Source: a virus
Virus record (IMG/VR): IMGVR_UViG_3300045988_106984
Direction: 5' to 3' (one strand)
DNA: 16,464 nt
Position 1 is the first letter of the stretch. Every line of letters begins with the position of its first letter. A program made the position numbers and the translations under genes. Shown piece by piece: positions 1 to 14,448 of this stretch. The notes below the pieces were generated by a model, which was not told the DNA's origin, made no database searches, and worked only from the letters and a program-made list of their open reading frames with translations.

Positions 1-119
1 TAAAGTTTTATGTGAGTATTTCAATGGTTCAACAACTAGAACTGGGTTATGTGTAGTTTCAGAAGATAGAGTTATTGAAGTATTAGGGTTAAACAACTAT
101 GACGGAAAACGGGTTCTTG
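1..119. repeat. Left inverted terminal repeat (ITR), 119 bp
   Basis: The reverse complement of 16346-16464 is identical to 1-119. Identity ends at position 120 (c here versus t in the reverse-complemented right end). ITRs are the hallmark of protein-primed linear genomes. Confidence 0.95.
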
Positions 120-178: not shown

Positions 179-194
179 TGTTTCACATGAAACA
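179..194. promoter_or_regulatory. Palindromic motif copy 1 (TGTTTCACATGAAACA), candidate operator
   Basis: Near-perfect 16-bp palindrome 29 nt upstream of the first early gene's ATG (223). It is one of four copies in the window. Confidence 0.5.
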
Positions 195-1042: not shown

Positions 1043-1321
1043 ATGATTATAGTTAAAGCAGTAAGAACAGTGTTTATAGCGCAAGGGCATATTGATTTTG
1101 GTGGAACGCCTAACGACCGTACTATAACAAAAGAATTTATATATGATTCTGAAAAAATACCGAGTTCTAAAGATTTATTAAATTTTTCTAATCGGAATAT
1201 AGAACATGTCAATTTTAATAAAATTGTTTCACGTGAAACATACGAAATAAAATTATCAATGACATTTAATGAGTTTTATAAATTTGCACACGAAAATAAT
1301 ATAAAGAAAAAGGAGATATAA
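1043..1321 (+). CDS. Hypothetical early protein (92 aa)
   Basis: In-frame ATG 1043 has an AAAGGGG RBS at about 8 nt. The track's start at 995 has none and overlaps the previous gene. Confidence 0.65.
   Translation: MIIVKAVRTVFIAQGHIDFGGTPNDRTITKEFIYDSEKIPSSKDLLNFSNRNIEHVNFNKIVSRETYEIKLSMTFNEFYKFAHENNIKKKEI
1225..1240. promoter_or_regulatory. Palindromic motif copy 3 (TGTTTCACGTGAAACA, perfect 16-bp palindrome)
   Basis: Perfect palindrome inside the 1043-1321 gene. Confidence 0.45.
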
Positions 1322-1322
1322 T

Positions 1323-1559
1323 ATGTTTAATTTAACCAACTTTACATCCGCATTAAACGATATGGGAGTTAAGATATCAATACCATTTGACGATTTTTCT
1401 GTTTGGTTATTTAAAGGAAAATATGATATAACACTTACAAAACAAGAAATTGATAAATTAATGAAAGAACTAGGTGTAGATAGTGCAATACAAATTATAG
1501 GATTACTAGCAATAGCAAAAGGTGAAGTAGAAAAAATAAAAGAAAGAAAACTGATATAG
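1323..1559 (+). CDS. Hypothetical early protein (78 aa)
   Basis: ORF with AAAAAGGAG RBS, abutting the previous stop codon. Confidence 0.7.
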   Translation: MFNLTNFTSALNDMGVKISIPFDDFSVWLFKGKYDITLTKQEIDKLMKELGVDSAIQIIGLLAIAKGEVEKIKERKLI

Positions 1560-1613
1560 AAAATTAAAATATTGTTAAAAAATTAACTAGCGTACCAGAA
1601 AAGGAGAAAAACA

Positions 1614-1883
1614 ATGACAGTTAAAGTAGAAAAAACAATGTCAGCATTTTTTGCAAATAAGGTTAGAAAAGCATTACACAAAAAAATTAAAGGCTATTCA
1701 AAATGTTGGGTACAGGACGACGTTTTGATTGCTGATATTCAACCCTTAGGCATTTACACATACCATTTCACAATATCGGAAATATCCAATCACATTTCCC
1801 ACGGCTTAACCGCCGAACAGGTTTCAAAAGATATTATAAAGGGCTACAGAGATTATATATTATCCGAGCATTTTTTTAAATAA
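1614..1883 (+). CDS. Hypothetical early protein (89 aa, basic N-terminus)
   Basis: ORF with AAAAGGAG RBS. Confidence 0.7.
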   Translation: MTVKVEKTMSAFFANKVRKALHKKIKGYSKCWVQDDVLIADIQPLGIYTYHFTISEISNHISHGLTAEQVSKDIIKGYRDYILSEHFFK

Positions 1884-1895
1884 TCAAATAAAGTA

Positions 1896-1924
1896 TTGAC
1901 ATTTATAACAAAATAAGGTATTAT
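1896..1924 (+). promoter_or_regulatory. Consensus sigma-A-type promoter for the leader RNA and replication operon
   Basis: TTGACA (1896-1901), 17-nt spacer, TATTAT (1919-1924). The -35 context TATTGACATTT is shared with the late promoter at 7056-7066. Confidence 0.8.
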
Positions 1925-1999
1925 ATAAGAGTAATGAGGAACAACAAGTTACATTTGCCACAGGTGTGGCGGTATTCAATCCGCCCACCTCTACCCCAT

Positions 2000-2118
2000 G
2001 AATAGGTAGCAAAGAGGTAATGCGCCGTTAATGTCATATATTGATATTTTCATGTAGTGTAAATTTACACTAAGGTCGAGGACATCGGTTATCGTGGGTT
2101 CAAATCCCACCCTATTCA
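2000..2118 (+). ncRNA. tRNA-like RNA with an expanded arm instead of an anticodon stem-loop (not a canonical tRNA)
   Basis: Acceptor GAATAGG (2000-2006) pairs with CCTATTC (2111-2117). T8 and A9 are present. The D arm is GCA/TGC with loop equivalents of A14, R15, G18, G19 and A21. The T arm is GTGGG-TTCAAAT-CCCAC (2094-2110). There is a 5-nt variable loop. Positions 2025-2088 form a 64-nt extended arm with no 7-nt anticodon loop. No credible ORF lies in 1884-2181. Confidence 0.6.
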
Positions 2119-2181
2119 ATCCCTCATAAGAGGGTAGTTGCATAAAAATACAAAAAATCTTAAAGAAAAAGGAGAAAAATT

Positions 2182-2499
2182 ATGGCAAGATTACCAATGG
2201 TTACAAGAACCATCACAACAACAAAAGTAAACTTAATGTGTTTAGACATTGAACACGCAGAACCATGCAACAGGGTTATTACAATCCCACGTACCTACAA
2301 AGATGAGGAAACAATTCTGAAAAAGGTAAAACCTCTTTTAGAAACCGAAACACTTAAAGTAGTGCATGTAGTAGGCACTGAAACAGAAGAAACACTTTAC
2401 GGTATGACCGAACAGGAGTTTGTAGAGTTTGCACACCCCCTGTTAGATAGAACAGGAAAAACAGAAGAAGCAACAGAACCAGAAACAGAAAACGAATAA
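2182..2499 (+). CDS. Histone-like dsDNA-binding protein, phi29 p6-like
   Basis: 105 aa, close to phi29 p6 size. The N-terminal RTITTTKVNL resembles p6 REITKTTVNV as I recall it. There is a central VVxV...E..Y motif and an acidic C-terminal tail (TEEATEPETENE). It is the first gene of the replication operon, as in phi29 order 6-5-3-2. Confidence 0.6.
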   Translation: MARLPMVTRTITTTKVNLMCLDIEHAEPCNRVITIPRTYKDEETILKKVKPLLETETLKVVHVVGTETEETLYGMTEQEFVEFAHPLLDRTGKTEEATEPETENE

Positions 2500-2520
2500 T
2501 TAAAAGGAGAATAGAAAATT

Positions 2521-2877
2521 ATGATTACAATTAAAAAAACATCAAGAGAGTTTACACCAGTTGAAAAGTATCTTATGACAACATCTCCCGATATTACATC
2601 AATGAAAGATGTAGCAGACGGTGAAAAAATCACAGTTGACGGTTATCTCACATTTGATGATGTGAAAGAAAAAACAGGTGAAGTTGTAGAGGTGTTGAGC
2701 ATTATCACACCAGATAAAAAAGTTTACAGCTGTCAGTCAGCAACTTTCAAACGTTCAATCAGTGATATTAATGATGTAATGGAAACCACACCATTTACAG
2801 TTATCAAAATTAGTGGTAAAACAAAAGCGGGGAGAGATTTTATCAACTGTGTTCTTGATGTAGAATCAATCAGATAA
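2521..2877 (+). CDS. Single-stranded DNA-binding protein, phi29 p5-like
   Basis: 118 aa (phi29 p5 is about 124 aa). Its position lies between the p6-like and terminal protein genes. The pattern DG..I...........G......V.TI...DG..YS..S......... matches my recollection of p5. Confidence 0.55.
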   Translation: MITIKKTSREFTPVEKYLMTTSPDITSMKDVADGEKITVDGYLTFDDVKEKTGEVVEVLSIITPDKKVYSCQSATFKRSISDINDVMETTPFTVIKISGKTKAGRDFINCVLDVESIR

Positions 2878-2891
2878 AGTTGATTTTAACA

Positions 2892-2914
2892 GGGGGGGCA
2901 ACCCCCCTTATTTT
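2892..2914 (+). terminator. Rho-independent terminator/attenuator between the SSB and terminal protein genes
   Basis: G7 (2892-2898), CAA, C6 (2902-2907) hairpin followed by TTATTTTATT. Confidence 0.6.
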
Positions 2915-2931
2915 ATTAAAGGGGTGAAATT

Positions 2932-3678
2932 ATGGCAAAGAAACGGAAACAAACAGAAACAGAAAAGTTATACTCAAAACAACTAAAAAGAATCAAACAA
3001 TTTATTCGTCGAGCAGAAAAACGCGGATTTATATTTAAAGAAGATATAATCCCACAAAAGCCTAAAAAAGTAACAAAAGCAAGTGTAAGAAAATTAGAGA
3101 AATTAACGCCAGAAAAGTTATATAAAAAATCGTTATATGTAGAAGAATCGACAGGTGAAATTGAAGAAGCACAGAAAAGACGAAAAGAAGAAAGAAAACA
3201 AAGTGCTAGAAAAGCCGTTAAAACTAAAAAAGAAAGACAGAAACAACGCCGTAGTTGGTCTTTTAAAGATGCAGAAAAACACCGCGAGCAACTACCATCA
3301 GAGGGAAAAGAGGTCTTTAAAAATATAATAGATGATTTTGTAAGTAGATTACAAATTGATACAAGTTGGGTAGGAAGAAAAAGGCGCAGACCTGTAGCAC
3401 TACAAGAAACTATACGTTCACAAAGTTTATTATTGAGTTTAATCAATCAGCAAATAGCGTTATTTGGTGAAGAAGAAATCGGAAATAGATTACAAGCAAA
3501 CTCAGATAAACTGACAGAACTAATAACTATAGTATTATGGGACAGTAAAGCGGAAGCAATACAGTCAGCAACTCGATTATTTATGGAAACATTAATAGGT
3601 AATAGTTTAACGCCCTCACAGTTACAAGATTTAGATTTAGAATCAGAATATAATGAGGATTTTGAACAACCAGAATGA
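2932..3678 (+). CDS. Terminal protein (replication primer), phi29 gp3-like
   Basis: 248 aa (phi29 TP is 266 aa), directly upstream of the DNA polymerase with an ATGA overlap. The N-terminal half is highly basic, with Y..QLKRIKQFIRRAEKRG resembling phi29 EYARLVKNTKAKIARTKKKYG. The C-terminus is acidic. Confidence 0.65.
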   Translation: MAKKRKQTETEKLYSKQLKRIKQFIRRAEKRGFIFKEDIIPQKPKKVTKASVRKLEKLTPEKLYKKSLYVEESTGEIEEAQKRRKEERKQSARKAVKTKKERQKQRRSWSFKDAEKHREQLPSEGKEVFKNIIDDFVSRLQIDTSWVGRKRRRPVALQETIRSQSLLLSLINQQIALFGEEEIGNRLQANSDKLTELITIVLWDSKAEAIQSATRLFMETLIGNSLTPSQLQDLDLESEYNEDFEQPE

Positions 3679-5663
3679 AACAACGTGAATATCGTTATTT
3701 TATGGGAGATTTTGAAACAACTGTGTACAAGGGGCAAGTAAACACAGAAGTGTGGGCTAGTGCGCTTGTAGAGTTATTTACCGATAAAGTCACAATTCTG
3801 CATAGCATAGCCGAAACTTTTGATTATTTAGTATCATTAAATTGCAACGTTGTTGTTTATTATCACAACTTAAAATTTGATGGTGCTTTTTGGTTATCAT
3901 ATTTATTAGTTGATAAAAAATTTACACAGGCATATGACAAAATTGGAGACAAAGAAACTGACGTAAAATGGAAACAGCAATTTAAAATGTTTAACAATAC
4001 CTTTAAATACTCCATATCTGATAGAGGGATGTGGTATTCTATCATAGTAAAGGTAAAAAATCATTTTATAGAAATACGTGATTCTCTTAAACTTTTACCT
4101 TTTTCAGTTAAAAGAATAGGTGAAAGTTTTGGTACAAAGCATAAAAAATTAGATATGGAATATACAGGTTTTCGGTATGCTGGCTGTGATATAACAAAAG
4201 AAGAACAAGAGTATATAGCGAATGACGTTCTTGTAGTGAAAGAAGCCTTAGAAATTATGTTTAAACAGGGGCATAACAAATTAACTATAGGTTCATGCTG
4301 TTTGGAAGAATATAAAAAAATATGCCGGTCATCTTTAGAAATTCAATTAGATTACACCGAAATGTTTCCTAATCTATATGATTTTAAAATTGATAAACAA
4401 GAACACAAATATGATAATGCTGGTGATTGGTTACGGAAATCATATAGGGGTGGCTGGTGCTATTTAGTAAAAGGAAAAGAAAACAAAATAAAAACGAATG
4501 GGACAACGGCTGATGTAAATTCTCTTTACCCCTCTATGATGAGTAGTAAAAGTGGAAATAAATATCCTATAGGTTTACCAAAATTTTGGACTGGAAATTT
4601 TATTCCAGAAGAAGCGCTAAAAGAAAATATGTATTACTTTGTAAGAATAAAAACAAGGTTTTACATAAAAGACAACTATTTGCCATTTATTCAAGTAAAG
4701 GGGGATTTAAAATATAAAGGTACAGAATCACTAGAAGATAGCGACGTATATAACCATGAAAACGGTCAAAAGTTTCCGTATTACATAGATAAAAACGGAA
4801 ATATACAACAGGCTAAAGTTGAACTAACTTTAACCATGACAGATTATCAACTAATAAAAGAGCACTATGAGTTAGTTGATTTTGAAATTATTGATGGCTG
4901 TTACTTTTATTCTATGGTTGGTATTTTTGACGAATACATCAACAAATACGCTAAAATAAAAAAGGAAAGTAAAGGTGCGTTAAGAGAGTTAGCAAAGCTA
5001 TTTTTAAATAACCTATATGGGAAAATGGCAAGTAGCACCGATTCTTCTTTTAAGATTGCATACGTTAAAGACGATAAATCTATAGGATTTATGCAAGTAG
5101 TAGAAAACGAAAAGAAGCCGGGTTATATTGCTATAGGATCTGCTATTACATCATATTCAAGAAATTTTACAATACGAGCTGCACAGAAAAATTATTATGG
5201 AGCAGAAAAAAGGGGGTTTATATACGCAGATACAGACAGCATACATTGTGATTTATTACCGCAAGAAATAAAAGGAATTGAAGTAGACGACAAAGAATTT
5301 TGTTGCTGGAAATTAGAAAGTTGTTGGGATAAAGCTATATTTACAAGGCAGAAAACTTATATTGAACACGTTACACACGAAAATCTTATACCATTAGAAG
5401 AAAGTAAACAATACAACAATATTAAATGTGCTGGTATGCCGAAAAAATGCAAAAATTTGTTTGAAATATCTATGCAAGGTACAGCTGATGTAAATGAAAA
5501 CTGGAGTGATGAAGAAAAAGAATTTTTATTTGATAAAAACAACAAGCCGATTGTTAGAGATTATAGCGACTTTAAAGTTGGGTTGAAAGTGCCAGATAAG
5601 CTTAGACCAATTCGTATACGTGGAGGCGTATTACTTGTGAATACTACTTATGAAATGAGGTAA
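3675..5663 (+). CDS. Protein-primed family-B DNA polymerase, phi29 gp2-like
   Basis: Motifs present: ExoI DFETT; ExoII YHNLKFDGAF; ExoIII YIANDV; motif A DVNSLYPSMM; motif B KLFLNNLYGKMAS; motif C YADTDSIH; KxY RQKTYIE. All closely match phi29 polymerase motifs. Confidence 0.97.
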   Translation: MKQREYRYFMGDFETTVYKGQVNTEVWASALVELFTDKVTILHSIAETFDYLVSLNCNVVVYYHNLKFDGAFWLSYLLVDKKFTQAYDKIGDKETDVKWKQQFKMFNNTFKYSISDRGMWYSIIVKVKNHFIEIRDSLKLLPFSVKRIGESFGTKHKKLDMEYTGFRYAGCDITKEEQEYIANDVLVVKEALEIMFKQGHNKLTIGSCCLEEYKKICRSSLEIQLDYTEMFPNLYDFKIDKQEHKYDNAGDWLRKSYRGGWCYLVKGKENKIKTNGTTADVNSLYPSMMSSKSGNKYPIGLPKFWTGNFIPEEALKENMYYFVRIKTRFYIKDNYLPFIQVKGDLKYKGTESLEDSDVYNHENGQKFPYYIDKNGNIQQAKVELTLTMTDYQLIKEHYELVDFEIIDGCYFYSMVGIFDEYINKYAKIKKESKGALRELAKLFLNNLYGKMASSTDSSFKIAYVKDDKSIGFMQVVENEKKPGYIAIGSAITSYSRNFTIRAAQKNYYGAEKRGFIYADTDSIHCDLLPQEIKGIEVDDKEFCCWKLESCWDKAIFTRQKTYIEHVTHENLIPLEESKQYNNIKCAGMPKKCKNLFEISMQGTADVNENWSDEEKEFLFDKNNKPIVRDYSDFKVGLKVPDKLRPIRIRGGVLLVNTTYEMR

Positions 5664-5667
5664 AAAT

Positions 5668-5817
5668 ATGACATGTGGTGAGTTATTAGGTTTTCTAATA
5701 GAAGAATGTGATAACACAGACTGTGAGCATTGCGTTTTAGAGGAAACATGCAAAGAGTACAACACAACGCCAGAAAAAACTAAAGAGTATTTAATAAAAT
5801 GTGAAAAAGAAATATAA
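5668..5817 (+). CDS. Small Cys-rich hypothetical protein (49 aa, 6 Cys)
   Basis: ATG 5668 is preceded by GAGGT at about 8 nt. Product: MTCGELLGFLIEECDNTDCEHCVLEETCKEYNTTPEKTKEYLIKCEKEI. It ends just before the terminator and is below the track's length cutoff. Confidence 0.5.
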   Translation: MTCGELLGFLIEECDNTDCEHCVLEETCKEYNTTPEKTKEYLIKCEKEI

Positions 5818-5820
5818 AAT

Positions 5821-5866
5821 AAAATAGCGTGAGGAGAAGAAAAATCTTCTTTACTCACGCTATTTT
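5821..5866. terminator. Bidirectional rho-independent terminator between the convergent replication operon and ATPase transcript
   Basis: A 13-bp outer stem (AAAATAGCGTGAG 5821-5833 / CTCACGCTATTTT 5854-5866) plus an inner GAAGA/TCTTC stem. T-rich on the + side and A-rich (U-rich for the minus transcript) on the other side. Confidence 0.8.
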
Positions 5867-5868
5867 TA

Positions 5869-5980
5869 TATCTGTAACTTTTGTACCATTTAAAGCGGTC
5901 AGCGAAACCGAAAAGTAAACAGGCAGTATTTTTTCAACCGTGCTACCCTGTTTATTCATTAATGGAAACAAAAGCAGATA
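5869..5980 (-). ncRNA. Structured RNA, candidate prohead/packaging RNA (pRNA-like three-way junction); strand uncertain
   Basis: An 18-bp interrupted closing helix (5869-5890 with 5961-5980, including a 3-nt bulge and a 1x2 internal loop) encloses hairpins 5896-5910 and 5914-5956. No ORF with an RBS is present. The element lies between the ATPase stop codon and the terminator, so the minus strand has both a promoter and a terminator for it. Confidence 0.45.
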
Positions 5981-5981
5981 C

Positions 5982-7016
5982 CTAATAACTTAAAGCTGAT
6001 AACACAGCTTCCTTGCAACGCATATCTTTAAATCGAAAACAACCATGCTCAAAGAAATAGCGCAAATTCGATAAAAAGAAATCATTATGTTTCAACATAA
6101 TATAATTTATATTATGGTCGTCAGTCGTGACTGAAATTCTAGTTAAAAAAGAACTATCTGCCTTGTCGTCACAGTAGATTAGACCACTTTCAGTATATTC
6201 GCGTAACGCAAAGTCACTTCCTTTATATCTTAAAGTACAAAGGTATTTTGACTTTCCAGCTGGTTTTTCAACAAAAGCCTTGTTATCATTCAGATACACG
6301 CATTCACTACTATAGGCAGTATAGCTATTTTTAGAAAAAGCTCTGTTAAATCCGCTATTTTTTTGCTCTATACTTGCACTTTCAATATACCCTTGTTCAA
6401 GTACAAAACCGTCCCCCCTTAAAAACTTTGTGTCGTCTTTGAGTCTGCCAGAAATACCCATTTCAACATAGTACGGATTTATAATGCTGACTGGATTGCT
6501 TAACATATAAACTGGGACATATCGAACTTGTTCACCTTGTCCTCTAGCTATTGAGGTGTGAATACTTATAAATTTCTTAGTTTCATTATCGCAATAGTGA
6601 TTTGTTTCGCTCTGAAATTCATCAAAAATCATACGCTGAATATCTGAAAATAAGTGGCTATATTTTTTAATTTGGTCTGCATTATTTAAGCTTAATGCGT
6701 AACCACAGCTTTTATCATTTAAAAACAATTCTTGAAACGTACCTTTTGCTCTGCGCTTTGATTGCATAGTATAAGTTGGAAAGAACAAACTACCTAAATC
6801 TTTGTAAAACTTATCGACAATATCATCTAGTTCATAATTATATCTATATAATAAACCAAACTTTTCACCTTTATCTAAAAAACGATTTATACATAGTCGC
6901 CCAAAATAAGTGGTTTTTCCACCTGTCCTGTTAGTAGTGCACATATATATTTCTGGTTTATTTCCATTTATATCAAGCATTGATAAAAGTTTAGTCCCAT
7001 CATAATATTTGGTCAT
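5982..7016 (-). CDS. DNA encapsidation (packaging) ATPase, phi29 gp16-like
   Basis: 344 aa (phi29 gp16 is about 332 aa). Walker A-like NRTGGKTT and Walker B MIFDEF. AAGGAAAAGGAG RBS. This is the only strongly supported minus-strand gene. Confidence 0.85.
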   Translation of the reverse strand: MTKYYDGTKLLSMLDINGNKPEIYMCTTNRTGGKTTYFGRLCINRFLDKGEKFGLLYRYNYELDDIVDKFYKDLGSLFFPTYTMQSKRRAKGTFQELFLNDKSCGYALSLNNADQIKKYSHLFSDIQRMIFDEFQSETNHYCDNETKKFISIHTSIARGQGEQVRYVPVYMLSNPVSIINPYYVEMGISGRLKDDTKFLRGDGFVLEQGYIESASIEQKNSGFNRAFSKNSYTAYSSECVYLNDNKAFVEKPAGKSKYLCTLRYKGSDFALREYTESGLIYCDDKADSSFLTRISVTTDDHNINYIMLKHNDFFLSNLRYFFEHGCFRFKDMRCKEAVLSALSY

Positions 7017-7042
7017 AATTTATCGCTCCTTTTCCTTATTAA

Positions 7043-7071
7043 ATTATAGCACACCTATTGACATTTTTCAA
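7043..7071 (-). promoter_or_regulatory. Promoter for the packaging ATPase transcript
   Basis: On the minus strand: TTGAAA, 17-nt spacer, TGcTATAAT (extended -10). Confidence 0.75.
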
Positions 7072-7086
7072 GATTTAGTTTATAAT
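7058..7086 (+). promoter_or_regulatory. Late-operon promoter
   Basis: TTGACA (7058-7063), 17-nt spacer, TATAAT (7081-7086), 35 nt upstream of the holin ATG. Confidence 0.8.
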
Positions 7087-7121
7087 AAAATTAAATTGAA
7101 TAAGAAAGGAAGTGAAAAAGT

Positions 7122-7466
7122 ATGCAGTTTTACCCTGTTATTATTGCACTGATTTTTAATGCTCTTGATTTAGTAACTGGTATTATTTCCGCAGTAAAAT
7201 CAAAAGACATTAAATCAGCAAAACTACGTGATGGGTTATTTAAAAAGGTTGGCTTTATACTTTGCTACCTTGTCGCATGGTTGGTTGATACACAAGGGAA
7301 ATATATTGGTTTTCATATAGATGTATCAATTCTTCCTATTATAATTCTTTACGTGTGCACAACTGAATTAGTTTCAATTCTGGAAAATATCAGTAAAATT
7401 AATTCAGACATTTTACCAGACAAATTAATGGAGTTATTTCACATTTCAGACATTAATAAGGAGTGA
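7122..7466 (+). CDS. Holin (phage_holin_4_1 / LL-H-TcdE-like family)
   Basis: 114 aa with about 3 hydrophobic segments. Characteristic LDLVTGIISAVKSKDIKSAKLRDGLFKKVG and ELVSILENISKIN motifs. It lies immediately upstream of the endolysin. Confidence 0.85.
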   Translation: MQFYPVIIALIFNALDLVTGIISAVKSKDIKSAKLRDGLFKKVGFILCYLVAWLVDTQGKYIGFHIDVSILPIIILYVCTTELVSILENISKINSDILPDKLMELFHISDINKE

Positions 7467-7472
7467 TTAAAA

Positions 7473-8117
7473 ATGAAAGTGTATCTTTCACCGTCAGACC
7501 AGTGGTCAAATATAGTAGCTGGTGGTAAACATTCGGAAGCTTTTCACTGTATCAAGATTGCTGATTATGCTAGAGCATATTTAGAATTGAATGGATATGA
7601 AGTTAAGGTAGGCTCATCAGTAGCAGAAAATACCTATAAAGACAGAGTAAAAGAAAGTAATGAGTGGGGGGCAGATTTACATATTCCTATTCACACAAAC
7701 GCTGGTGGAGGTTATGGCACTCTGGTGTTGTGTTATCCTACAAGAATAAACAACAGACATGTTATAAACATTTACAAAGAAGTTGCAAAACTTACACCCA
7801 CAAAAGATAAAGGAATTCAGACGACAAACAATCTATACGAAATTAATGCTACAAAATGTGTAACTATTTATCTTGAATGTGAATTTCACGACAATGAAGA
7901 TACTGAAAAATGGATTGATAGCCACGAAAAAGAGTTAGGCAGGGCAATTGCAAAAGGGGTATGTGATGCAGACGGAAAAGCTTATTTTGCGGAATTAACG
8001 AACCGTAAGAAAATTTATAAGGTGCAAGTTGGTGCATTTCATAACAGAAAAAACGCTGAAAAGCTGAAAAAAGAATTGACTGATAAAGGGTACAGCTGTT
8101 ATATTGTAGAGGAATAA
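7473..8117 (+). CDS. Endolysin: N-acetylmuramoyl-L-alanine amidase (Amidase_3) with C-terminal SPOR domain
   Basis: Amidase_3 signatures (DLHIPIHTNAGGG, ECEFHDN). The C-terminal KIYKVQVGAFHNRKNAEKLKKELTDKGYSCYIVE matches the SPOR consensus. Confidence 0.85.
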   Translation: MKVYLSPSDQWSNIVAGGKHSEAFHCIKIADYARAYLELNGYEVKVGSSVAENTYKDRVKESNEWGADLHIPIHTNAGGGYGTLVLCYPTRINNRHVINIYKEVAKLTPTKDKGIQTTNNLYEINATKCVTIYLECEFHDNEDTEKWIDSHEKELGRAIAKGVCDADGKAYFAELTNRKKIYKVQVGAFHNRKNAEKLKKELTDKGYSCYIVEE

Positions 8118-8118
8118 T

Positions 8119-9177
8119 ATGCCAGATATTAACAAGGCTTATTCATGGGCTATTGAAACATGTAACGCTCCAAACGTAGGATATAGTAACGCATATCGGA
8201 ATCAACAAACAGTTGGTGGCATAACCTATTATGACTGTAGTTCATTTATAAATTATGCGTTACTAGCTGGTGGTTTTGAAACCCCTAATTATGCCCCTGA
8301 TCACAACTCATTTACAACTTATGATGAAGCAGAAGTGTTATTATCACTAGGCTTTACAGAAGTATCTGCAACCGGAGAGTATTTAGCTGGTGATATAGGT
8401 CTAAACCCAACACACACAGAAATGTGTTACCAAGGAGGGCAAGGCTCTGGTATTTTCATGGGAGCACATACAGATAAAAGACCACTAGCAGATCAAGTAA
8501 ACATAAGCCCTTATACATCATCATTTCAGAGGTTGTTTAGGTATGGTGACGGTGGTGTAACAGGATACGGCGCAAGCATTTATGTAGTATCCGCTATGTG
8601 CGGTAATTTTTGGCAAGAGTCAAATATTAACCCCGGAGTTTGGGAAAAAGAGCCACACGATTGGACAGCTTTAAACGTAGGGTACGGTCTAGGTCAATGG
8701 ACTAACACAGACGGAGATACACACGGTAGACTTTATCAGTTGCATGAATGGTTACAATCAAATGGTTATGCTGATGATGATGGAAACGGACAGTGCGCTT
8801 ATATCGTACATGAAAATGTGTGGATGCCTAAAACTGGGTATCAAGAGTACGCTACACTGGAAGATTTTTTAAAGTCAACTAGCACTGACATTGAAAGTCT
8901 GACGCATTATTGGAATATGTGCTGGGAGGGAATACACGATTCGTCATGGGACTATCGAGTAGAACGCGCAAATGCTTGTTATAATTTCATTTCAAGTAAT
9001 GCAAACAACGCCGATATTACTAACTGGATAACAAAAGACGGATATTTAACAGAAGCAGAAATTTTGAACAATGCAGTAATGTTATACCGTTATTTTAGTG
9101 CTGGTGGCGGTGGTGGTGGGTTACCATCAAAAAGAAAAACAAAATTGCCACTTTATATGATGATACGTTATTTTTAA
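8119..9177 (+). CDS. Tail-associated peptidoglycan hydrolase (NlpC/P60-CHAP-like peptidase + phage tail lysozyme-like domain), functional analogue of phi29 gp13
   Basis: The N-terminus has YYDCSSFINYAL ... THTEM (Cys/His peptidase). The C-terminus has CGNFWQESNINPG ... GYGLGQWT (tail lysozyme-type motif). A Gly6 linker is followed by a basic tail. Confidence 0.7.
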   Translation: MPDINKAYSWAIETCNAPNVGYSNAYRNQQTVGGITYYDCSSFINYALLAGGFETPNYAPDHNSFTTYDEAEVLLSLGFTEVSATGEYLAGDIGLNPTHTEMCYQGGQGSGIFMGAHTDKRPLADQVNISPYTSSFQRLFRYGDGGVTGYGASIYVVSAMCGNFWQESNINPGVWEKEPHDWTALNVGYGLGQWTNTDGDTHGRLYQLHEWLQSNGYADDDGNGQCAYIVHENVWMPKTGYQEYATLEDFLKSTSTDIESLTHYWNMCWEGIHDSSWDYRVERANACYNFISSNANNADITNWITKDGYLTEAEILNNAVMLYRYFSAGGGGGGLPSKRKTKLPLYMMIRYF

Positions 9178-9178
9178 A

Positions 9179-9194
9179 TGTTTCACATGAAACA
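9179..9194. promoter_or_regulatory. Palindromic motif copy 4 (TGTTTCACATGAAACA)
   Basis: Starts 2 nt after the lysin stop codon. 9177-9195 is 19/19 identical to 177-195. Confidence 0.5.
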
Positions 9195-9220
9195 ATTTAT
9201 AAGAAAAAGGAGTTGATAAA

Positions 9221-9370
9221 ATGTTATTTACAAAAGGAAAGTACAAACACGAAACAGGTTTTGAAATTATGGTAACAGAAAACGGAGATATTCTTATTTC
9301 ACCAGACCACCCACTTTCTTTAAGATTATCTGAGATTTTCGATAAAAACAAGTGGACAAAAGTTGAGTAG
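9221..9370 (+). CDS. Small hypothetical protein (49 aa)
   Basis: ATG 9221 has an AAAAAGGAG RBS. Product: MLFTKGKYKHETGFEIMVTENGDILISPDHPLSLRLSEIFDKNKWTKVE. It fills the gap before the scaffold gene and is below the track's cutoff. Confidence 0.55.
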   Translation: MLFTKGKYKHETGFEIMVTENGDILISPDHPLSLRLSEIFDKNKWTKVE

Positions 9371-9381
9371 GAGGTTATAAT

Positions 9382-9681
9382 ATGGCTGTAAGAAATAAAG
9401 AGGAAATTTTAGAAGCAATTAGAACAAGAGTAGGAGAGCAGACAGATGATGAAACAATTTCATTTCTTGAAGATGTTAGTGACACGTTCACCGACTTAGA
9501 AACAAGGGCAAATGGTGACGGTGAGGACTGGAAAACAAAATATGAAGAAAACGATAAATCGTGGCGAGAGCGTTATACGAACCGTTTTTTCAGTAAAGAA
9601 CCAGAGCCAGACCCTAAACCAGAGCCAGAACCAGAGCCAGAAGTGAAAAAAACATTTTCAGATTTATTTAAGGAGGGTTAA
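9382..9681 (+). CDS. Scaffolding protein, phi29 gp7-like
   Basis: 99 aa (gp7 is 98 aa), acidic and predicted helical, directly upstream of the major capsid gene. Contains an (E/D/K-P)n linker. Confidence 0.7.
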   Translation: MAVRNKEEILEAIRTRVGEQTDDETISFLEDVSDTFTDLETRANGDGEDWKTKYEENDKSWRERYTNRFFSKEPEPDPKPEPEPEPEVKKTFSDLFKEG

Positions 9682-9683
9682 AT

Positions 9684-11093
9684 ATGCCTAGACGGGTTGC
9701 TGTTAGCACATTAAACGCGACAACAATGGACATTCTTAACGTAATCAGACAGAATGCTAGTTATGATTATCAGCAGAGTGTGCCAGAAGTTACAAAGACA
9801 ACAGATATTCCAAAAGTAGGTGAAGTTATTTATGGCACACCAGCTTTTGCGAATCAGTTCATTAACGCACTTGTAAATCGTATTGCAATTGTACGAATGC
9901 AGAGTGCAACATTCAACAATCCATATGCAATTTTGAAAAAAGGGTATCTTGAATTCGGTGAAAGTGTGGAAGATATTTTCGTTTCAATTGCCAAAGCTGT
10001 TGATTTTGATGTTGAAAAAGCGCCAAAAAGAGAATTTCAGAGAACAGTGCCAGGTGTGAGAAGCGTATTCCATACAATGAACTGGCGCGTTGTCTACCCT
10101 GTTACCATACAGGATGAAGATTTAAGACAAGCTTTTCTTTCAATTGATGGTGTGCAGAACCTTATTGCAAAAATCGTTGATTCTGTTTACACTGCCGCTG
10201 AATATGACGAATTTTTGCTGTTTAAGTATCTGTTAATTAAAGCTATTAGTCACGGAAAAATGTTTCCTATTTCTACTGGACAGGCGAACGATTTAACAGA
10301 TGCGGCTGCGAAATTTAGAGGTACATCAAATCTTTTACCGTTTATGTCATCAAACTATAATGAGTCTGGCGTTAAAACAAACACGCCAAAAGACCGACAG
10401 GTTATTTTCATGGATGCAACTTTCAATGCAGAATTTGATGTATCTGTCCTTGCTTCTGCATTCAACATGGAAAAGGCTGATTTCATGGGACGGCTGTTTC
10501 TTATTGACAGTTGGTCTGAGTTTGACAACGAACGCTTTGACGTTATCAGAGAAAATTCTGACGGTATTGAAGAAGTTACCACAGCTGAATTAAATCTGAT
10601 GAAAGACGTAAAAGCGGTATTGCTTGACGAAAATTGGTTCCAGGTTTATGACAACAATAACAAGTTTACTGAAAAGTACGTTGCAAGCGGTCTGTATTGG
10701 AACTATTTCTACCACACATGGAAAACTGTTTCTTACTCGCCATTTGCGAACGCTGTTGTATTCGTTCAGAGCACAGCAACAATTACGTTGCCAGATACAC
10801 TAATAGTCGAAATTATCAGCAAAGACCACAGTGAAGAAGCTACCGTGTTTGCGTTAAGTGCTGATACAGACGGAGCTAGCCTTGAGCCGAATAGTGTTCA
10901 TTTTGTACAGGATGAAAGCTCCACTACAAACGGAATTGCTATTCAGAAATACGGCGCTGTTATTATTCCAGCTTCAAAAGCGGCTACCGAAATAACTTTA
11001 GTGGCAGAGGTTAATGGTCAGACTTATAAGGGAGCTACAGCAATTTCAAGTGCTAACAATGTTGGGGACACTGTCACAATGAACAAAGCGTAA
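9684..11093 (+). CDS. Major capsid protein, phi29 gp8-like, with C-terminal Ig-like domain
   Basis: Blocks such as VLASAFNMEKADFMG, DENWFQVYDN and GLYWNYFYHTWKTVSYSPFANAVVFV match my recollection of gp8 ([51 protein letters not shown]). Confidence 0.9.
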   Translation: MPRRVAVSTLNATTMDILNVIRQNASYDYQQSVPEVTKTTDIPKVGEVIYGTPAFANQFINALVNRIAIVRMQSATFNNPYAILKKGYLEFGESVEDIFVSIAKAVDFDVEKAPKREFQRTVPGVRSVFHTMNWRVVYPVTIQDEDLRQAFLSIDGVQNLIAKIVDSVYTAAEYDEFLLFKYLLIKAISHGKMFPISTGQANDLTDAAAKFRGTSNLLPFMSSNYNESGVKTNTPKDRQVIFMDATFNAEFDVSVLASAFNMEKADFMGRLFLIDSWSEFDNERFDVIRENSDGIEEVTTAELNLMKDVKAVLLDENWFQVYDNNNKFTEKYVASGLYWNYFYHTWKTVSYSPFANAVVFVQSTATITLPDTLIVEIISKDHSEEATVFALSADTDGASLEPNSVHFVQDESSTTNGIAIQKYGAVIIPASKAATEITLVAEVNGQTYKGATAISSANNVGDTVTMNKA

Positions 11094-11102
11094 ATAGTCA
11101 AT

Positions 11103-11136
11103 CTAGGGTGAGTTAATAACTCGCCCTAGAGTTTTG
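11103..11136 (+). terminator. Rho-independent terminator/attenuator after the capsid gene
   Basis: 10-bp stem CTAGGGTGAG / CTCGCCCTAG (one G-U pair) with a 7-nt loop, followed by AGTTTT. Confidence 0.6.
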
Positions 11137-11150
11137 AAAGAGGTTAATAT

Positions 11151-12686
11151 ATGTATATCGAGCCTAATAGTAATATTCGTATTTTAAAAGACGTTCCTTT
11201 AGATAAAACATTTGACCATACCATATATTTTGGAAACGCCAGCGCACAGGCGACTTATTTCATGGGATTACAGAAATATAACTTGAATAATTACACCTAC
11301 CAGAGAGTTAAGCGTGGTTATGCAAGGGTTGGAATAAAAGCTGATAATTTGTATGACTGTAATTATATGATGTTTCAAAACACCTCATATGGTAATAAAT
11401 GGTTTTACGCGTTTATCACTTCTGTTGAGTATTTAAACAACGAATGTTCACAGATTGAATTTGAAATTGATGTAATGCAGACATGGTTTTTTGATTACAG
11501 TTTAGACCAATGCTTTGTTGAAAGAGAGCACACAGTAACAGATAATATTGGTATTCACATTGAACCAGAAAACGTGAATTTAGGTGAATATGTGTTTAAT
11601 GATTACAAAGACTTATCGGTTGCACTTAACAAGCTTGCAGTCTATGTAGCTGTGGTTGATACTGACACTCAACCAAGCGGAACTGTGTATGATGGTGTAT
11701 ATGGGGGTTGCACATTACACGCGTACCCACTAGATAAACCAGAATCAATAAACACTCTTTTAACGAAATACGCACAAAAACCGGATGCAGTTGTAGCTAT
11801 GTATATTGCACCAGCTATCGCCACTGGTACTGTTATACCAGATGAGGGAATGACAATTGTTTTTTCAAAAAATGCGTATTCGTTTAATAGTTCAAGTGGT
11901 GCGGTAAGTGATGAAATGAAAATAGATGGATATAAACCGAAAAATAAAAAACTATACACATATCCATATAATTTTTATTGTATTACAAATGCTGGCGCTT
12001 CTTCACTAAATTTAAGATATGAGTTTTTTGAAAACCTAACGCCAGCCTGGAATATAACAGTACCAATGACAATGCCTATACAATGTGTACTAAGACCGCG
12101 CAATTACAAGGGTGCTGAACTAAATTTAAACGAAACCTTAACACTGGCGAATTATCCTATGTGCTCGTGGAGTACAGATGCGTTTCGCGCATGGCTGGCG
12201 CAAAATGCTTTACCATTAGTGACAGAAACAGGGGTTAAAATGGTAAGCGGTTATTTAGGTGGTGGAGTTGTAGGTGCGACTGTAAACACTGCAAACACAG
12301 TTATGAAATCACTGTCGGAGGGGTATCAAGCTTCAATTCAAGCGGATGTTGTAAGGGGTAGTATTAACACTGGTAACAATAGTGTTGCTAGTGGACTACA
12401 ATCTTTTTACGGCGGTAGATGTTCCATAAGTGCCCAATATGCCAGAATGATTGATGATTATTTCACTGTTTATGGATATGCTGTGAAAAGACTGAAAATT
12501 CCAAACAGAGATAGTCGTCCACATTGGAATTATGTTAAAACTATAGGGTGTACAATAACAGGTAGCATTCCAAGTGATGATATGCAGTTAATTTGTAGCA
12601 TTTATGACAACGGTATTACATTTTGGAAAAATGGGTCTGAAATAGGTGATTATAGCTTAGATAATAGTCCACAAGGGGGTGAATAA
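11151..12686 (+). CDS. Tail knob (distal tube) protein, phi29 gp9-like
   Basis: YMMFQNTSYGNKWFYAFITSVEY...EFEIDVMQTWFFD matches gp9 YIMFQNADYGNKWFYAFVT...FEIDVLQTWMFD as I recall it. Gene order is the same as in phi29. Confidence 0.85.
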   Translation: MYIEPNSNIRILKDVPLDKTFDHTIYFGNASAQATYFMGLQKYNLNNYTYQRVKRGYARVGIKADNLYDCNYMMFQNTSYGNKWFYAFITSVEYLNNECSQIEFEIDVMQTWFFDYSLDQCFVEREHTVTDNIGIHIEPENVNLGEYVFNDYKDLSVALNKLAVYVAVVDTDTQPSGTVYDGVYGGCTLHAYPLDKPESINTLLTKYAQKPDAVVAMYIAPAIATGTVIPDEGMTIVFSKNAYSFNSSSGAVSDEMKIDGYKPKNKKLYTYPYNFYCITNAGASSLNLRYEFFENLTPAWNITVPMTMPIQCVLRPRNYKGAELNLNETLTLANYPMCSWSTDAFRAWLAQNALPLVTETGVKMVSGYLGGGVVGATVNTANTVMKSLSEGYQASIQADVVRGSINTGNNSVASGLQSFYGGRCSISAQYARMIDDYFTVYGYAVKRLKIPNRDSRPHWNYVKTIGCTITGSIPSDDMQLICSIYDNGITFWKNGSEIGDYSLDNSPQGGE

Positions 12687-14436: not shown

Positions 14437-14448
14437 AGGAGAGAAAGT

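What the first reader, a model, noticed from the sequence alone, without database searches (positions are those of the whole stretch)
2000..2118. tRNA-shaped RNA with a 64-nt arm replacing the anticodon stem-loop, embedded in a ~250-nt untranslated leader
A consensus promoter (1896-1924) is followed by about 250 nt with no credible ORF before the p6-like gene (ATG 2182), and this stretch is visibly more GC-rich than its surroundings. Positions 2000-2118 satisfy most tRNA tertiary-fold rules. These are a 7-bp Watson-Crick acceptor stem (GAATAGG/CCTATTC); U8 and A9; a D arm GCA/TGC whose loop AAGAGGTAA supplies A14, R15, G18, G19 and A21 equivalents; G26; a 5-nt variable loop TTATC whose C can form the Levitt pair with G15; a T arm GTGGG-TTCAAAT-CCCAC with G53-C61; and discriminator A2118. 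Where the 17-nt anticodon stem-loop should be, there is instead a 64-nt arm (2025-2088). It consists of CCG/CGG, a 3-nt bulge, ATGTC/GACAT, then 45 nt containing the perfect hairpin TAGTGTA-AATT-TACACTA (2055-2072). There is no 7-nt anticodon loop and no encoded CCA, so it cannot decode. A 5-bp hairpin CCCTC-ATAA-GAGGG (2121-2134) follows immediately. Possible roles, all inferential: an RNase P/RNase Z processing (punctuation) signal that releases the replication-gene mRNA with a protective 5' hairpin; a decoy for tRNA-directed host enzymes or defences; an alternative packaging RNA; or a decayed tRNA carrying an insertion. I do not know of such an element in phi29-like phages.
Basis: partly seen in the sequence, partly recalled or inferred. 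Interest (0 to 1): 0.8.

Follow-up and report, generated by a model that had tools for sequence, protein, structure and literature searches.

The report
Anticodon-less tRNA-like module in phage leader
A small gut phage related to phi29 carries, in the untranslated leader of its replication-protein operon, a real tRNA-shaped RNA whose anticodon arm is replaced by a 64-nt folded "cargo"; related phages keep a tRNA top half at this spot, so it most likely recruits the host's tRNA-cutting enzymes.

Summary
Rfam's tRNA model matches window 2000-2118 (+) exactly, at 48.3 bits (threshold 29), with a 58-nt insertion in the anticodon arm. ARAGORN finds no tRNA.

The window is a complete 16.5-kb phi29-like genome with 119-nt inverted terminal repeats. 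About 70 related gut phages, including cultured Clostridium phage CS229P2, keep the same layout:
- promoter and leader hairpin;
- a tRNA top half (7-bp acceptor stem plus T arm);
- a hairpin 0-3 nt after the discriminator, in 46 of 54 distinct flanks;
- the ribosome-binding site of the p6-like/SSB operon.

All four scaffold helices show compensatory changes. The middle of the element is interchangeable. It ranges from bare minihelices (43-56 nt) to at least four cargo types. One relative has a canonical tRNA-Gln in this slot, and another has two tandem copies.

Near-identical genomes (~92%) differ by a clean swap of this module alone. The window's cargo type also occurs in a temperate-phage early leader.

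Best reading: a tRNA-derived processing module cut by host RNase P and RNase Z. Cutting would release a tRNA-scaffolded small RNA and leave the mRNA with a 5' hairpin. Cleavage is inferred, not shown, and the cargo's function is unknown.

A packaging-RNA role, a decayed tRNA and an intron-bearing tRNA are all disfavoured.

The parts
1896..1924 (+). Sigma-70-type promoter: TTGACA, 17-nt spacer, TATTAT. The predicted transcript start is near 1931.
   Evidence: Scores 11 of 12. Both hexamers are nearly invariant in the alignment of relatives.
1931..1952 (+). Hairpin at the 5' end of the transcript: GTAAT 1931-1935 pairs with GTTAC 1948-1952.
   Evidence: Present in the minimum-free-energy fold. 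The same GTAAC..GTTAC arrangement is visible in relatives.
1954..1997 (+). Leader hairpin with conserved flanks: TTTGCCA 1954-1960; stem AGGTG-(T)-GGCGG 1962-1972 / CCGCC-CACCT 1981-1990 with bulged T1967; loop TATTCAAT; then ACCCC 1993-1997.
   Evidence: The stem changes by compensatory substitutions across relatives, for example GGCGG/CCGCC to GACGG/CCGTC and GGGTGGC/GCCACCC to GGGTGAC/GTCACCC. The flanks stay constant. Function unknown.
2000..2118 (+). Whole tRNA-like RNA (119 nt): acceptor stem 2000-2006/2111-2117, D arm 2009-2023, T arm 2094-2110, discriminator A2118. No CCA is encoded.
   Evidence: Rfam tRNA match at 48.3 bits. 17 of 18 scaffold pairs show changes on both sides across 26 distinct relatives. 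11 of 12 top-half pairs do so across 40.
2025..2088 (+). Cargo arm in place of the anticodon stem-loop, folded as a three-way junction: P1 2025-2027/2086-2088; H1 2030-2036/2042-2048; J12 TTCATG 2049-2054; H2 2055-2061/2066-2072; J23 AGGTCGAGGACAT 2073-2085.
   Evidence: H1 and H2 show compensatory changes, and 10 of the 13 J23 positions are invariant, in 8 distinct type-A sequences, including the temperate-phage contig L168.
2121..2134 (+). Hairpin CCCTC-ATAA-GAGGG, starting 2 nt after the discriminator. It would become the 5' end of the mRNA after 3' cleavage of the tRNA-like RNA. No T run follows, so it is not an intrinsic terminator.
   Evidence: A hairpin starts 0-3 nt after the discriminator in 46 of 54 distinct relatives, with different sequences.
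2135..2181 (+). A-rich spacer and Shine-Dalgarno sequence (AGGAG 2170-2174) ahead of ATG 2182.
   Evidence: Sequence. The element ends 57-71 nt before the ATG in 44 of the 54 distinct relatives (range 36-115 nt).
2182..2909 (+). Downstream operon: p6-like gene 2182-2499, phi29-type SSB 2521-2877, then a strong intrinsic terminator 2891-2909 before the terminal-protein and polymerase genes.
   Evidence: phrog_6370, dsDNA-binding protein, E = 5e-4. PF17427 Phi29_Phage_SSB, E = 1e-8. Terminator.

Best explanation
Positions 2000-2118 encode a tRNA-derived RNA that cannot decode. It sits in the 5' leader of the early operon for the p6-like DNA-binding protein and the SSB.

The acceptor stem, T arm and D/T elbow are kept because host tRNA-maturation enzymes recognise them. 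I propose the following steps.
1. RNase P cuts between U1999 and G2000.
2. RNase Z cuts after A2118. No CCA is encoded, and the CCA-adding enzyme probably then adds one.

This would have three consequences.
- The structured 69-nt 5' leader is detached.
- A stable tRNA-shaped small RNA is released, with a 64-nt three-way-junction cargo grafted onto the anticodon stem. This would be a natural counterpart of the engineered tRNA scaffold.
- The replication mRNA starts 2 nt before a hairpin (2121-2134). That hairpin should shield its 5'-monophosphate end from 5'-dependent decay in a Firmicute host.

The processing role is what is conserved at this slot. The cargo is an optional, exchangeable passenger whose own function (protein binding or decoy) is unknown.

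What is shown: the fold, its conservation and covariation, the fixed position, and the module swap.
What is inferred: the cleavages, the mRNA stabilisation, and any activity of the cargo.
For: - **tRNA-like fold.** Rfam's tRNA model scores 48.3 bits at exactly 2000-2118. At the same position in other lineages it passes its threshold with 23-61-nt insertions: L148 51.3, L129 48.7, L121 47.5, L095 39.0 and L112 37.5 bits; L171 48.0, L045 44.1 and L022 41.4 bits.
- **Conserved position.** A top half with a 6/7- or 7/7-paired acceptor stem, a T stem with at least 4 of 5 pairs and a T loop ends 36-115 nt (mostly 57-70) before the p6-like ATG in 66 of 74 leaders scanned, including cultured Clostridium phage CS229P2. 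L112 and L114, two of the eight the scan missed, carry the element further upstream. In many more distant relatives it ends about 1450-1500 nt before the polymerase gene.
- **Covariation.** 17 of 18 scaffold pairs have changes on both sides, and the covariation score is 0.95 against about 0.1 for slid controls. The G53-C61 pair is invariant in 40 of 40 top halves.
- **The minimal substrate is what persists.** Several lineages keep only a 43-56-nt acceptor/T minihelix.
- **Flanks suit RNase P and RNase Z.** U is at -1 in 40 of 54, no CCA is encoded in 0 of 54, a pyrimidine is at +1 in 47 of 54, and U is at +2 in 43 of 54. RNase Z cuts CCA-less precursors right after the discriminator in Firmicutes (PMC8549757).
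- **A real tRNA fills the slot in one relative.** L025 has a canonical tRNA-Gln(UUG), 63.9 bits, with the same upstream and downstream hairpins.
- **Downstream hairpin.** It starts 0-3 nt after the discriminator in 46 of 54.
- **Module swap.** Genomes about 92% identical differ by replacement of exactly the segment between ACCCCA and the discriminator: 119-nt type A against 69-nt type D.
- **The cargo is itself under selection.** H1 and H2 covary. Type A recurs in a temperate-phage early leader, L168. L045 carries two tandem elements.
- **Precedent.** Plant mitochondrial t-elements direct RNase P and RNase Z cuts that set mRNA ends (PMC1920247). MHV68 TMERs pair a tRNA-like element with downstream hairpins released by tRNase Z (PMC4838037).
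Against: - No transcript ends or cleavage data exist for any member.
- If processing alone mattered, a minihelix would do. Yet large cargo arms are maintained and covary, so the released RNA may be the main product.
- A promoter placed directly at the hairpin would give the same mRNA without any processing, so the benefit of the detour is unexplained.
- My parser selected for pairing, so the percentages of paired cells are partly circular.
- Rfam's filters missed L081, which is 91% identical to the window. Prevalence by Rfam is therefore underestimated and rests partly on my own scan.
- The hosts are unknown for most contigs, so the presence of RNase Z is assumed from general Firmicute biology.
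Confidence: 0.6

Rival explanations
1. The excised tRNA-shaped RNA is the real product. It would act in trans as a sponge, decoy or regulator, for example against host enzymes or defences that bind the tRNA acceptor/T region, or against a phage regulator that binds the cargo. The effect on the mRNA would be incidental.
For: - Cargo helices covary, and a 13-nt junction strand is nearly invariant across phages whose p6-like and polymerase proteins are only about 60-65% identical to the window's.
- The same cargo type occurs in an unrelated temperate-phage early leader.
- Modules are swapped between near-identical genomes, which is the pattern expected under diversifying selection.
- L045 has a tandem duplication.
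- The type-D cargo is the same 16-bp palindrome that sits just upstream of several ribosome-binding sites in these genomes. This suggests a protein-binding hairpin.
Against: - Many lineages keep only a cargo-less minihelix at the slot, and one has an ordinary tRNA-Gln. No single cargo function can therefore explain why the slot is conserved.
- No partner was identified.
- There is no significant complementarity to the phage's own genome.
Confidence: 0.2
2. The structure is an uncleaved cis-regulatory element of the leader. It would control translation or transcription elongation of the p6-like/SSB operon, for example by binding a tRNA-binding host factor.
For: - It lies in a 251-nt structured leader that folds better than shuffled controls, z = -4.2.
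- Conserved single-stranded motifs (TTTGCCA, ACCCC) and an additional covarying hairpin lie upstream.
- A terminator at 2891-2909 inside the operon could be a target for antitermination.
Against: - A true tRNA occupies the slot in L025 and has to be excised to function.
- In some relatives the element is intercistronic, with no promoter of its own.
- The flanks match processing-site preferences.
- No Rfam cis-regulatory family matches.
Confidence: 0.1
3. It is the functional equivalent of phi29 prohead RNA (pRNA), linking the gp16 ATPase to the connector during DNA packaging.
For: - The genome encodes a gp16-type ATPase and a gp10 connector.
- No Rfam pRNA match exists anywhere in the genome, so the packaging RNA, if there is one, is unidentified.
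- The element has paired 5' and 3' ends and a multi-helix junction, as pRNA does.
Against: - Phages about 92% identical across the connector and ATPase genes carry unrelated modules, 119-nt type A against 69-nt type D.
- Other relatives have a bare minihelix or an ordinary tRNA-Gln.
- Type A also occurs in the early leader of a temperate phage with a different replication module.
- The H1 and H2 loops show no conserved mutual complementarity (sequences).
Confidence: 0.04
4. It is a decaying tRNA pseudogene that acquired an insertion and has no function. Alternatively, it is an intron-containing tRNA that is spliced into a decoding tRNA.
For: - It plausibly derives from a real tRNA, since L025 has tRNA-Gln at the slot.
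- ARAGORN calls odd 92-96-nt 'tRNAs' in type-C and type-B relatives.
Against: - Compensatory changes occur in all scaffold helices and in the cargo helices.
- Position and flanks are conserved in about 70 genomes.
- There is no anticodon loop.
- The insert is far smaller than bacterial group I tRNA introns, and no intron family matches in Rfam.
- Minihelix versions have no anticodon arm at all.
Confidence: 0.05

Closest known systems
Canonical tRNA (Rfam RF00005)
   Same: - 7-bp acceptor stem, U8/A9, and a D arm with GG.
- T arm with TTCAAAT and G53-C61, a 5-nt variable loop, and discriminator A.
- The model scores above its threshold.
- Likely the evolutionary source, because a relative has tRNA-Gln in the same slot.
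   Different: - It has no anticodon stem-loop. A 64-nt three-way junction replaces it.
- ARAGORN does not call it.
- It cannot decode.
- It is embedded in an mRNA leader.
Plant mitochondrial t-elements (PMC1920247)
   Same: - Non-decoding tRNA-like structures inside mRNA untranslated regions.
- They are defined chiefly by the acceptor stem and the GGTTCRANYCC T arm.
- Their ends coincide with mRNA ends made by RNase P and RNase Z.
- CCA-type nucleotides are added to the released element.
   Different: - Organellar rather than viral.
- No large conserved cargo arm and no exchangeable modules.
- Cleavage has been shown there and has not been shown here.
MHV68 TMERs: viral tRNA-like element followed by pre-miRNA hairpins (PMC4838037)
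   Same: A virus-encoded tRNA-like element that is not used for decoding sits directly upstream of hairpins. tRNase Z cleavage at its 3' end frees the downstream RNA.
   Different: - Eukaryotic RNA polymerase III transcripts.
- The downstream product is a microRNA precursor, not an mRNA.
- The tRNA-like part keeps a normal-sized anticodon arm (from memory).
MALAT1/mascRNA, and the engineered tRNA scaffold of Ponchon and Dardel (both from memory)
   Same: - In MALAT1/mascRNA a tRNA-like fold recruits RNase P and RNase Z to define the ends of flanking RNA.
- In the engineered scaffold, a foreign RNA grafted onto the anticodon stem is processed and stabilised like a tRNA. This is exactly the topology seen here.
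   Different: mascRNA is eukaryotic and carries no cargo. The scaffold is man-made. A natural bacterial or phage counterpart with swappable cargo has not, to my knowledge, been described.
Phage P1 C4 and satellite P4 CI RNAs; T4 species 1 and 2 RNAs (from memory)
   Same: Small stable phage RNAs are cut out of longer early transcripts by RNase P, thanks to an acceptor-like stem. C4 and CI lie in the leader of the operon they control.
   Different: - C4 and CI act as antisense RNAs on nearby targets. No such complementarity was found here.
- No Rfam C4 match.
- They lack a full D/T elbow.
phi29 pRNA (Rfam Phage_pRNA)
   Same: A non-coding RNA of a phi29-like phage, made from an early promoter, with paired 5' and 3' ends and a junction.
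   Different: - No sequence or structure match.
- The module is swapped between phages with near-identical packaging genes.
- It lies in an mRNA leader rather than being a separate gene at the genome end.
tmRNA tRNA-like domain
   Same: Acceptor stem and T arm, with the anticodon arm replaced by a long helix that leads into other structure.
   Different: - No tag reading frame, no pseudoknots, no G3-U70 and no encoded CCA.
- ARAGORN and Rfam tmRNA models find nothing.

Membership tests
tRNA (Rfam RF00005) | Covariance-model score at or above the curated gathering score | tested here: met
   48.3 bits against 29, model positions 1-71, at 2000-2118 +.
tRNA (Rfam RF00005) | Acceptor, D and T helices supported by compensatory changes in homologues | tested here: met
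   17 of 18 pairs have changes on both sides and 99.8% of cells are paired, against about 40% in slid controls. Top halves were tested in 40 distinct sequences. Caveat: my parser selected for pairing.
tRNA (Rfam RF00005) | Conserved tertiary-fold nucleotides (U8, A14, G18 G19, T54 T55 C56 A58, G53-C61) | tested here: met
   All are present in the window. G53-C61 is invariant in 40 of 40. T loops of the form TGCAAYT occur only in lineages that lack GG in the D loop.
tRNA (Rfam RF00005) | 5-bp anticodon stem with a 7-nt loop carrying U33 and an anticodon | tested here: not met
   A 64-nt three-way junction takes its place. ARAGORN finds no tRNA, and Rfam aligns it only through a 58-nt local insertion.
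tRNA (Rfam RF00005) | Aminoacylation and decoding | not testable with these tools
   Needs biochemistry. Decoding is excluded by the lack of an anticodon loop.
tRNA-like processing elements (t-element type) | Non-decoding tRNA-like fold, with at least an acceptor stem and T arm, inside an mRNA untranslated or intercistronic region | tested here: met
   It lies between promoter 1896-1924 and ATG 2182. The same slot is occupied in about 70 relatives.
tRNA-like processing elements (t-element type) | Transcript ends coincide with the element's 5' and 3' boundaries (RNase P and RNase Z cleavage) | not testable with these tools
   There are no transcript data. Indirect support only: U at -1 in 40 of 54, no encoded CCA, and U at +2 in 43 of 54.
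phi29 pRNA | Match to the pRNA covariance model | tested here: not met
   No hit in the window at the gathering threshold, and none at E up to 10 on 1850-2200.
phi29 pRNA | RNA co-evolves with the connector and ATPase it binds | tested here: not met
   The window and type-D relatives align at about 92% identity from about 1230 to 14770, yet carry unrelated modules.
phi29 pRNA | Two loops with conserved intermolecular complementarity for ring formation | tested here: not met
   H1 and H2 loops are TATAT/AATT in the window, GCTAT/AAAT in L081 and TT/TTACA in L129. There is no conserved complementarity (read by eye).
tmRNA | tRNA-like domain plus tag reading frame and pseudoknots | tested here: not met
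   ARAGORN's tmRNA search finds nothing. No Rfam tmRNA hit in the window.
C4/CI-type RNase P-processed antisense RNAs | Loops complementary to target sites in the same phage's transcripts | tested here: not met
   The longest perfect complement of the cargo in the genome is 11 nt, and 31% of shuffled cargos reach that length. The J23 strand has no complementary site.
Intron-containing bacterial tRNA | Group I intron in the anticodon loop that restores a normal anticodon arm when spliced | tested here: not met
   The insert is 58-64 nt, no intron family matches, and no anticodon loop can be rebuilt from the flanks.

The most novel reading that the evidence does not exclude
These phages use the tRNA body as a natural expression chassis. 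Host tRNA enzymes would excise, end-repair and stabilise whatever RNA is grafted onto the anticodon stem. The grafted cargo arms would be trans-acting aptamers or decoys, such as sponges for a phage regulator or for host defence or tRNA-directed enzymes. Phages, including unrelated temperate ones, would exchange them as modules in an arms race. That would be a new class of modular phage non-coding RNA.
Probability: 0.3. Interest if true: 0.8.

Novelty: new variant of a known kind. Interest (0 to 1): 0.6.

Why it matters
If the model is right, small protein-primed phages of gut Firmicutes borrow the host's tRNA-maturation machinery to shape the mRNA for their most abundant replication proteins. 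The same step would manufacture a stable small RNA.

It would be the first bacterial or phage counterpart of plant t-elements and herpesviral TMERs, and a natural version of the tRNA scaffold used in RNA engineering.

The clean swapping of cargo types between near-identical genomes points to a fast-evolving RNA function that annotation pipelines miss. ARAGORN misses the window's element and most relatives, and Rfam's filters miss some copies.

It also narrows the search for the still-unidentified packaging RNA of these phages, by arguing that this element is not it.

Cultured relatives (Clostridium phages CS229P1-3 on Clostridium symbiosum) make the model directly testable.

Tried and rejected
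- **Packaging RNA.** Rejected on the module swap and on the temperate-phage homologue.
- **Antisense regulator of the phage's own transcripts.** The conserved strand GAGGTCGAGGACA has no complementary site. The best perfect complement of the cargo is 11 nt, which is within the shuffle range. A full RNA duplex-energy scan timed out and gave nothing.
Rejected, because relatives change one side only.
- **Resemblance of AGGTCGAGGACA to the sarcin-ricin loop, or to a GAG-triloop hairpin.** Considered by eye and dropped. The L095 and L103 variants (AGGTCAAGCACAC, AGGTCATGCACAC) do not keep either.
- **Metagenome pattern scan** (GGTCRAGGACA...GGTTCRANTCC). Most of the hits I inspected are GC-rich protein-coding sequence, apparently isoleucyl-tRNA synthetase genes by eye. 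Only L171, a close relative, was useful.
- **Viral-contig scan for the type-A motif.** It returned only contigs already in hand.
- **RNAalifold on the upstream leader hairpin.** It gave no structure because MAFFT misaligned the stems. The covariation there is read directly.
- **Rfam scans of relatives.** They under-detect the element: L081, 91% identical to the window, is missed.
- **Own covariance model.** Not built, because the variable linker makes a top-half model impractical.
- **BLAST of the 119-mer.** It finds only the two closest type-A contigs, L081/L013 and L085/L003. The phage database has no DNA match to the leader.
Full report
**What the window is.** The 16,464-bp window has perfect 119-nt inverted terminal repeats. 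It encodes the following:
- a protein-primed family B DNA polymerase (phrog_1907, E = 4e-127);
- a phi29-type SSB (PF17427);
- a gp16 packaging ATPase (PF05894);
- a gp10 connector (PF05352);
- a gp9 tail knob.

It is therefore a complete genome of a phi29-like podophage. The nearest database records are human faecal contigs. The nearest cultured relatives are Clostridium phages CS229P1-3, which infect Clostridium symbiosum and have 63% polymerase identity.

**Checking the observation.**
- Rfam's tRNA model matches exactly 2000-2118 on the + strand. The score is 48.3 bits (gathering score 29, E = 7e-8), it covers the full length of the model, and it carries a 58-nt local insertion in the anticodon arm.
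- No other Rfam family reaches its threshold in the window, and none comes close in 1850-2200.
- ARAGORN finds nothing, as expected without an anticodon loop.
- The element and the whole leader fold better than all shuffles.
- The promoter at 1896-1924 scores 11 of 12.
- No + strand ORF of 50 aa or more lies in the leader.
- G+C is 0.425 across the element, against 0.26-0.38 in the 400 nt upstream and 0.33-0.36 just downstream.
- A loose top-half pattern finds only this site on the + strand. Because such a pattern arises by chance about 0.17 times per random genome, I rest the case on the model score and on relatives.

**Relatives.**
- Searches with the polymerase and with the p6-like protein brought in 154 viral loci.
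- In 66 of 74 leaders scanned, a tRNA top half ends 36-115 nt (mostly 57-70) before the p6-like start codon. The top half has a 6/7- or 7/7-paired acceptor stem, a T stem with at least 4 of 5 pairs, and a T loop TTCRANN or TGCAAYT. L112 and L114, two of the eight the scan missed, carry the element further upstream.
- In many more distant relatives (57-66% polymerase identity) it ends about 1450-1500 nt before the polymerase gene. The window's distance is 1557 nt.
- The Rfam tRNA model independently passes its threshold at this slot in eight further loci from several lineages, each with a 23-61-nt insertion.
- Formal pair counts on 26 distinct full scaffolds give 17 of 18 pairs with changes on both sides. 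The covariation score is 0.95, against 0.25 for shuffles and about 0.1 for slid controls.
- On 40 distinct top halves, 11 of 12 pairs show changes on both sides and G53-C61 is invariant. My parser required pairing, so the paired percentages are partly circular. The variety of pair types and the fixed position are not.
- T loops that lose U55 (TGCAAYT) occur only in lineages without GG in the D loop. This fits a real D/T elbow.

**The middle is exchangeable.** The element ranges from 43-56-nt minihelices (for example L141-146, L145, the cultured phage CS229P2, and the large L047-L080 group) to 119 nt.

| Type | Length | Examples | Notes |
|---|---|---|---|
| A | 117-119 nt | the window, L095, L129, L131, L112, L022; looser variant in L148 | three-way-junction cargo |
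| B | 93-96 nt | L096 group | |
| C | 91-92 nt | L121 group | ARAGORN miscalls these as Leu or Phe |
| D | 68-71 nt | L082 and L084 group | cargo is a 16-bp palindrome |

- L025 has a canonical 72-nt tRNA-Gln(UUG), 63.9 bits, in exactly this slot with the same flanking hairpins.
- L045 has two tandem anticodon-less elements.
- The window's closest relatives are about 92% identical over roughly 13.5 kb, including the connector and ATPase genes. They carry type D instead of type A.
- The alignment shows near-identical flanks up to ACCCCA and again from the base after the discriminator, with unrelated sequence in between. The module is therefore a discrete, swappable unit.

**The window's cargo arm.**
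- Comparison of eight distinct type-A sequences supports a three-way junction: P1 CCG/CGG; H1 2030-2036/2042-2048; H2 2055-2061/2066-2072. Compensatory changes occur in H1 and H2.
- 10 of the 13 positions of the junction strand AGGTCGAGGACAT (2073-2085) are invariant in these sequences.
- A scan of one genome per bacterial species found one further type-A element, at 39.5 bits. It lies in a Ruminococcaceae contig, in the long leader between divergent cI-like and cro-like genes of a temperate-phage early region with SNF2, VRR-NUC, HD and AAA_24 genes.
- It shares the H2 stem and the junction strand with a close relative of the window (L171). The cargo type has therefore moved between unrelated phages.

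**Flanks.** Across 54 distinct cases:
- U is at -1 in 40;
- the discriminator is A in 37 and U in 17;
- CCA is never encoded;
- position +1 is a pyrimidine in 47;
- position +2 is U in 43;
- a hairpin starts 0-3 nt after the discriminator in 46.

In the window that hairpin is 2121-2134. No T run follows it, so it is not a terminator. The operon behind it encodes the p6-like protein and the SSB, then a strong terminator at 2891-2909 ahead of the terminal-protein and polymerase genes.

**Mechanism.**
- The only part kept everywhere is the acceptor/T-arm unit, with the D/T elbow in the larger forms. From established knowledge, this is the minimal determinant for RNase P, RNase Z and the CCA-adding enzyme.
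- RNase Z cuts CCA-less precursors immediately after the discriminator in Firmicutes (PMC8549757).
- I therefore propose cleavage at 1999/2000 and after 2118. This would release the tRNA-scaffolded RNA and leave an mRNA that begins 2 nt before a hairpin.
- In Firmicutes such a hairpin should protect a 5'-monophosphate end from 5'-dependent decay. That step is inference.
- This matches plant mitochondrial t-elements (PMC1920247) and the tRNA-like-plus-hairpin layout of MHV68 TMERs (PMC4838037).
- The cargo looks like an optional passenger with its own selected structure.
- The type-D cargo is the same palindrome, TGTTTCACRTGAAACA, found 23-31 nt upstream of three ribosome-binding sites in the window and conserved in relatives. 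This hints that cargos are protein-binding hairpins.
- None of the cleavages or downstream effects has been observed.

**Rivals.**
- A packaging-RNA role is unlikely because of the module swap, the tRNA-Gln and minihelix variants, and the temperate-phage copy. However, no Rfam pRNA match exists anywhere in the genome, so the packaging RNA of this clade remains unidentified.
- A dead pseudogene is contradicted by the covariation.
- An intron-bearing tRNA is contradicted by size, by the absence of any intron match, and by variants with no anticodon arm.
- A purely cis-acting uncleaved regulator cannot be excluded. It fits poorly with a true tRNA in the slot and with the intercistronic copies.
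- The view that the released RNA is the main product is a serious alternative. It is compatible with most of the evidence.

**Novelty.**
- Full-text searches found no description of a tRNA-like element in phi29-like phages.
- A 2024 review states only that some clusters are predicted to encode tRNAs, and that pRNA is known only in Bacillus phages (PMC11476376).
- The element is best filed as a new variant of a known kind: tRNA-derived processing elements and tRNA-like viral RNAs. Its unusual feature is an exchangeable cargo in place of the anticodon arm.

Noticed in passing
window 1-119 and 16346-16464: Perfect 119-nt inverted terminal repeats, so the window is a complete linear protein-primed genome. 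In some relatives the similarity between the two ends extends further inward.
   Followed up: partly
window 179-194, 782-797, 1225-1240, 9179-9194: A 16-bp palindrome, TGTTTCACRTGAAACA, occurs four times where 0.1 is expected. In three cases it lies 23-31 nt upstream of a Shine-Dalgarno/ATG pair, and it is conserved in relatives. The same palindrome forms the cargo hairpin of type-D tRNA-like elements. It is probably an operator for a DNA- or RNA-binding regulator.
   Followed up: partly
window 16284-16185, minus strand: A strong inward-facing promoter sits at the right end (11 of 12; 16284-16255). It is followed by TTTGCC, then a hairpin ACCCCCA 16235-16229 / TGGGGGT 16209-16203, then U-rich sequence. 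This may be a small RNA, and it shares the TTTGCC and ACCCC motifs of the leader studied here.
   Followed up: partly
window 1954-1960 and 1993-1997: Single-stranded motifs TTTGCCA and ACCCC flank the covarying leader hairpin. They are kept across cargo types A-D, while the L135 group has CACCTCC instead. No partner or function was found.
   Followed up: partly
window 2891-2909: A strong intrinsic terminator (GGGGGGGCAACCCCCC followed by Ts) lies inside the replication operon, between the SSB gene and the terminal-protein gene. This suggests high p6-like/SSB output and lower output of terminal protein and polymerase.
   Followed up: no
window about 5668-5870: A short Cys-rich ORF of about 49 aa follows the polymerase gene. 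It resembles in position an annotated 52-aa CDS in CS229P2. After it comes a long hairpin at 5824-5864, flanked by A and T runs, which looks like a bidirectional terminator between the convergent polymerase and gp16 genes.
   Followed up: no
L025 2118-2189: A relative with 65% polymerase identity carries a canonical tRNA-Gln(UUG), 63.9 bits, in the slot that the tRNA-like element occupies elsewhere.
   Followed up: yes
L045 1421-1541 and 1548-1647: Two tandem anticodon-less tRNA-like elements with different large central arms lie ahead of the downstream hairpin and ribosome-binding site.
   Followed up: partly
L168 896-1006 (Ruminococcaceae MAG contig CABUCT010000016.1): A type-A tRNA-like element (39.5 bits) ends 28 nt upstream of a cro-like gene, in a temperate-phage immunity and early region. 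It lies outside the phi29-like clade.
   Followed up: yes
L136 376-440; L141 278-328: Sub-threshold hammerhead ribozyme matches in two related phage contigs: type II at 34.8 bits (threshold 37) and type III at 25.3 bits (threshold 48.5).
   Followed up: no
window 4804-4904, minus strand: A second loose top-half pattern lies antisense within the polymerase gene. It is within the chance expectation and is not supported by Rfam.
   Followed up: no
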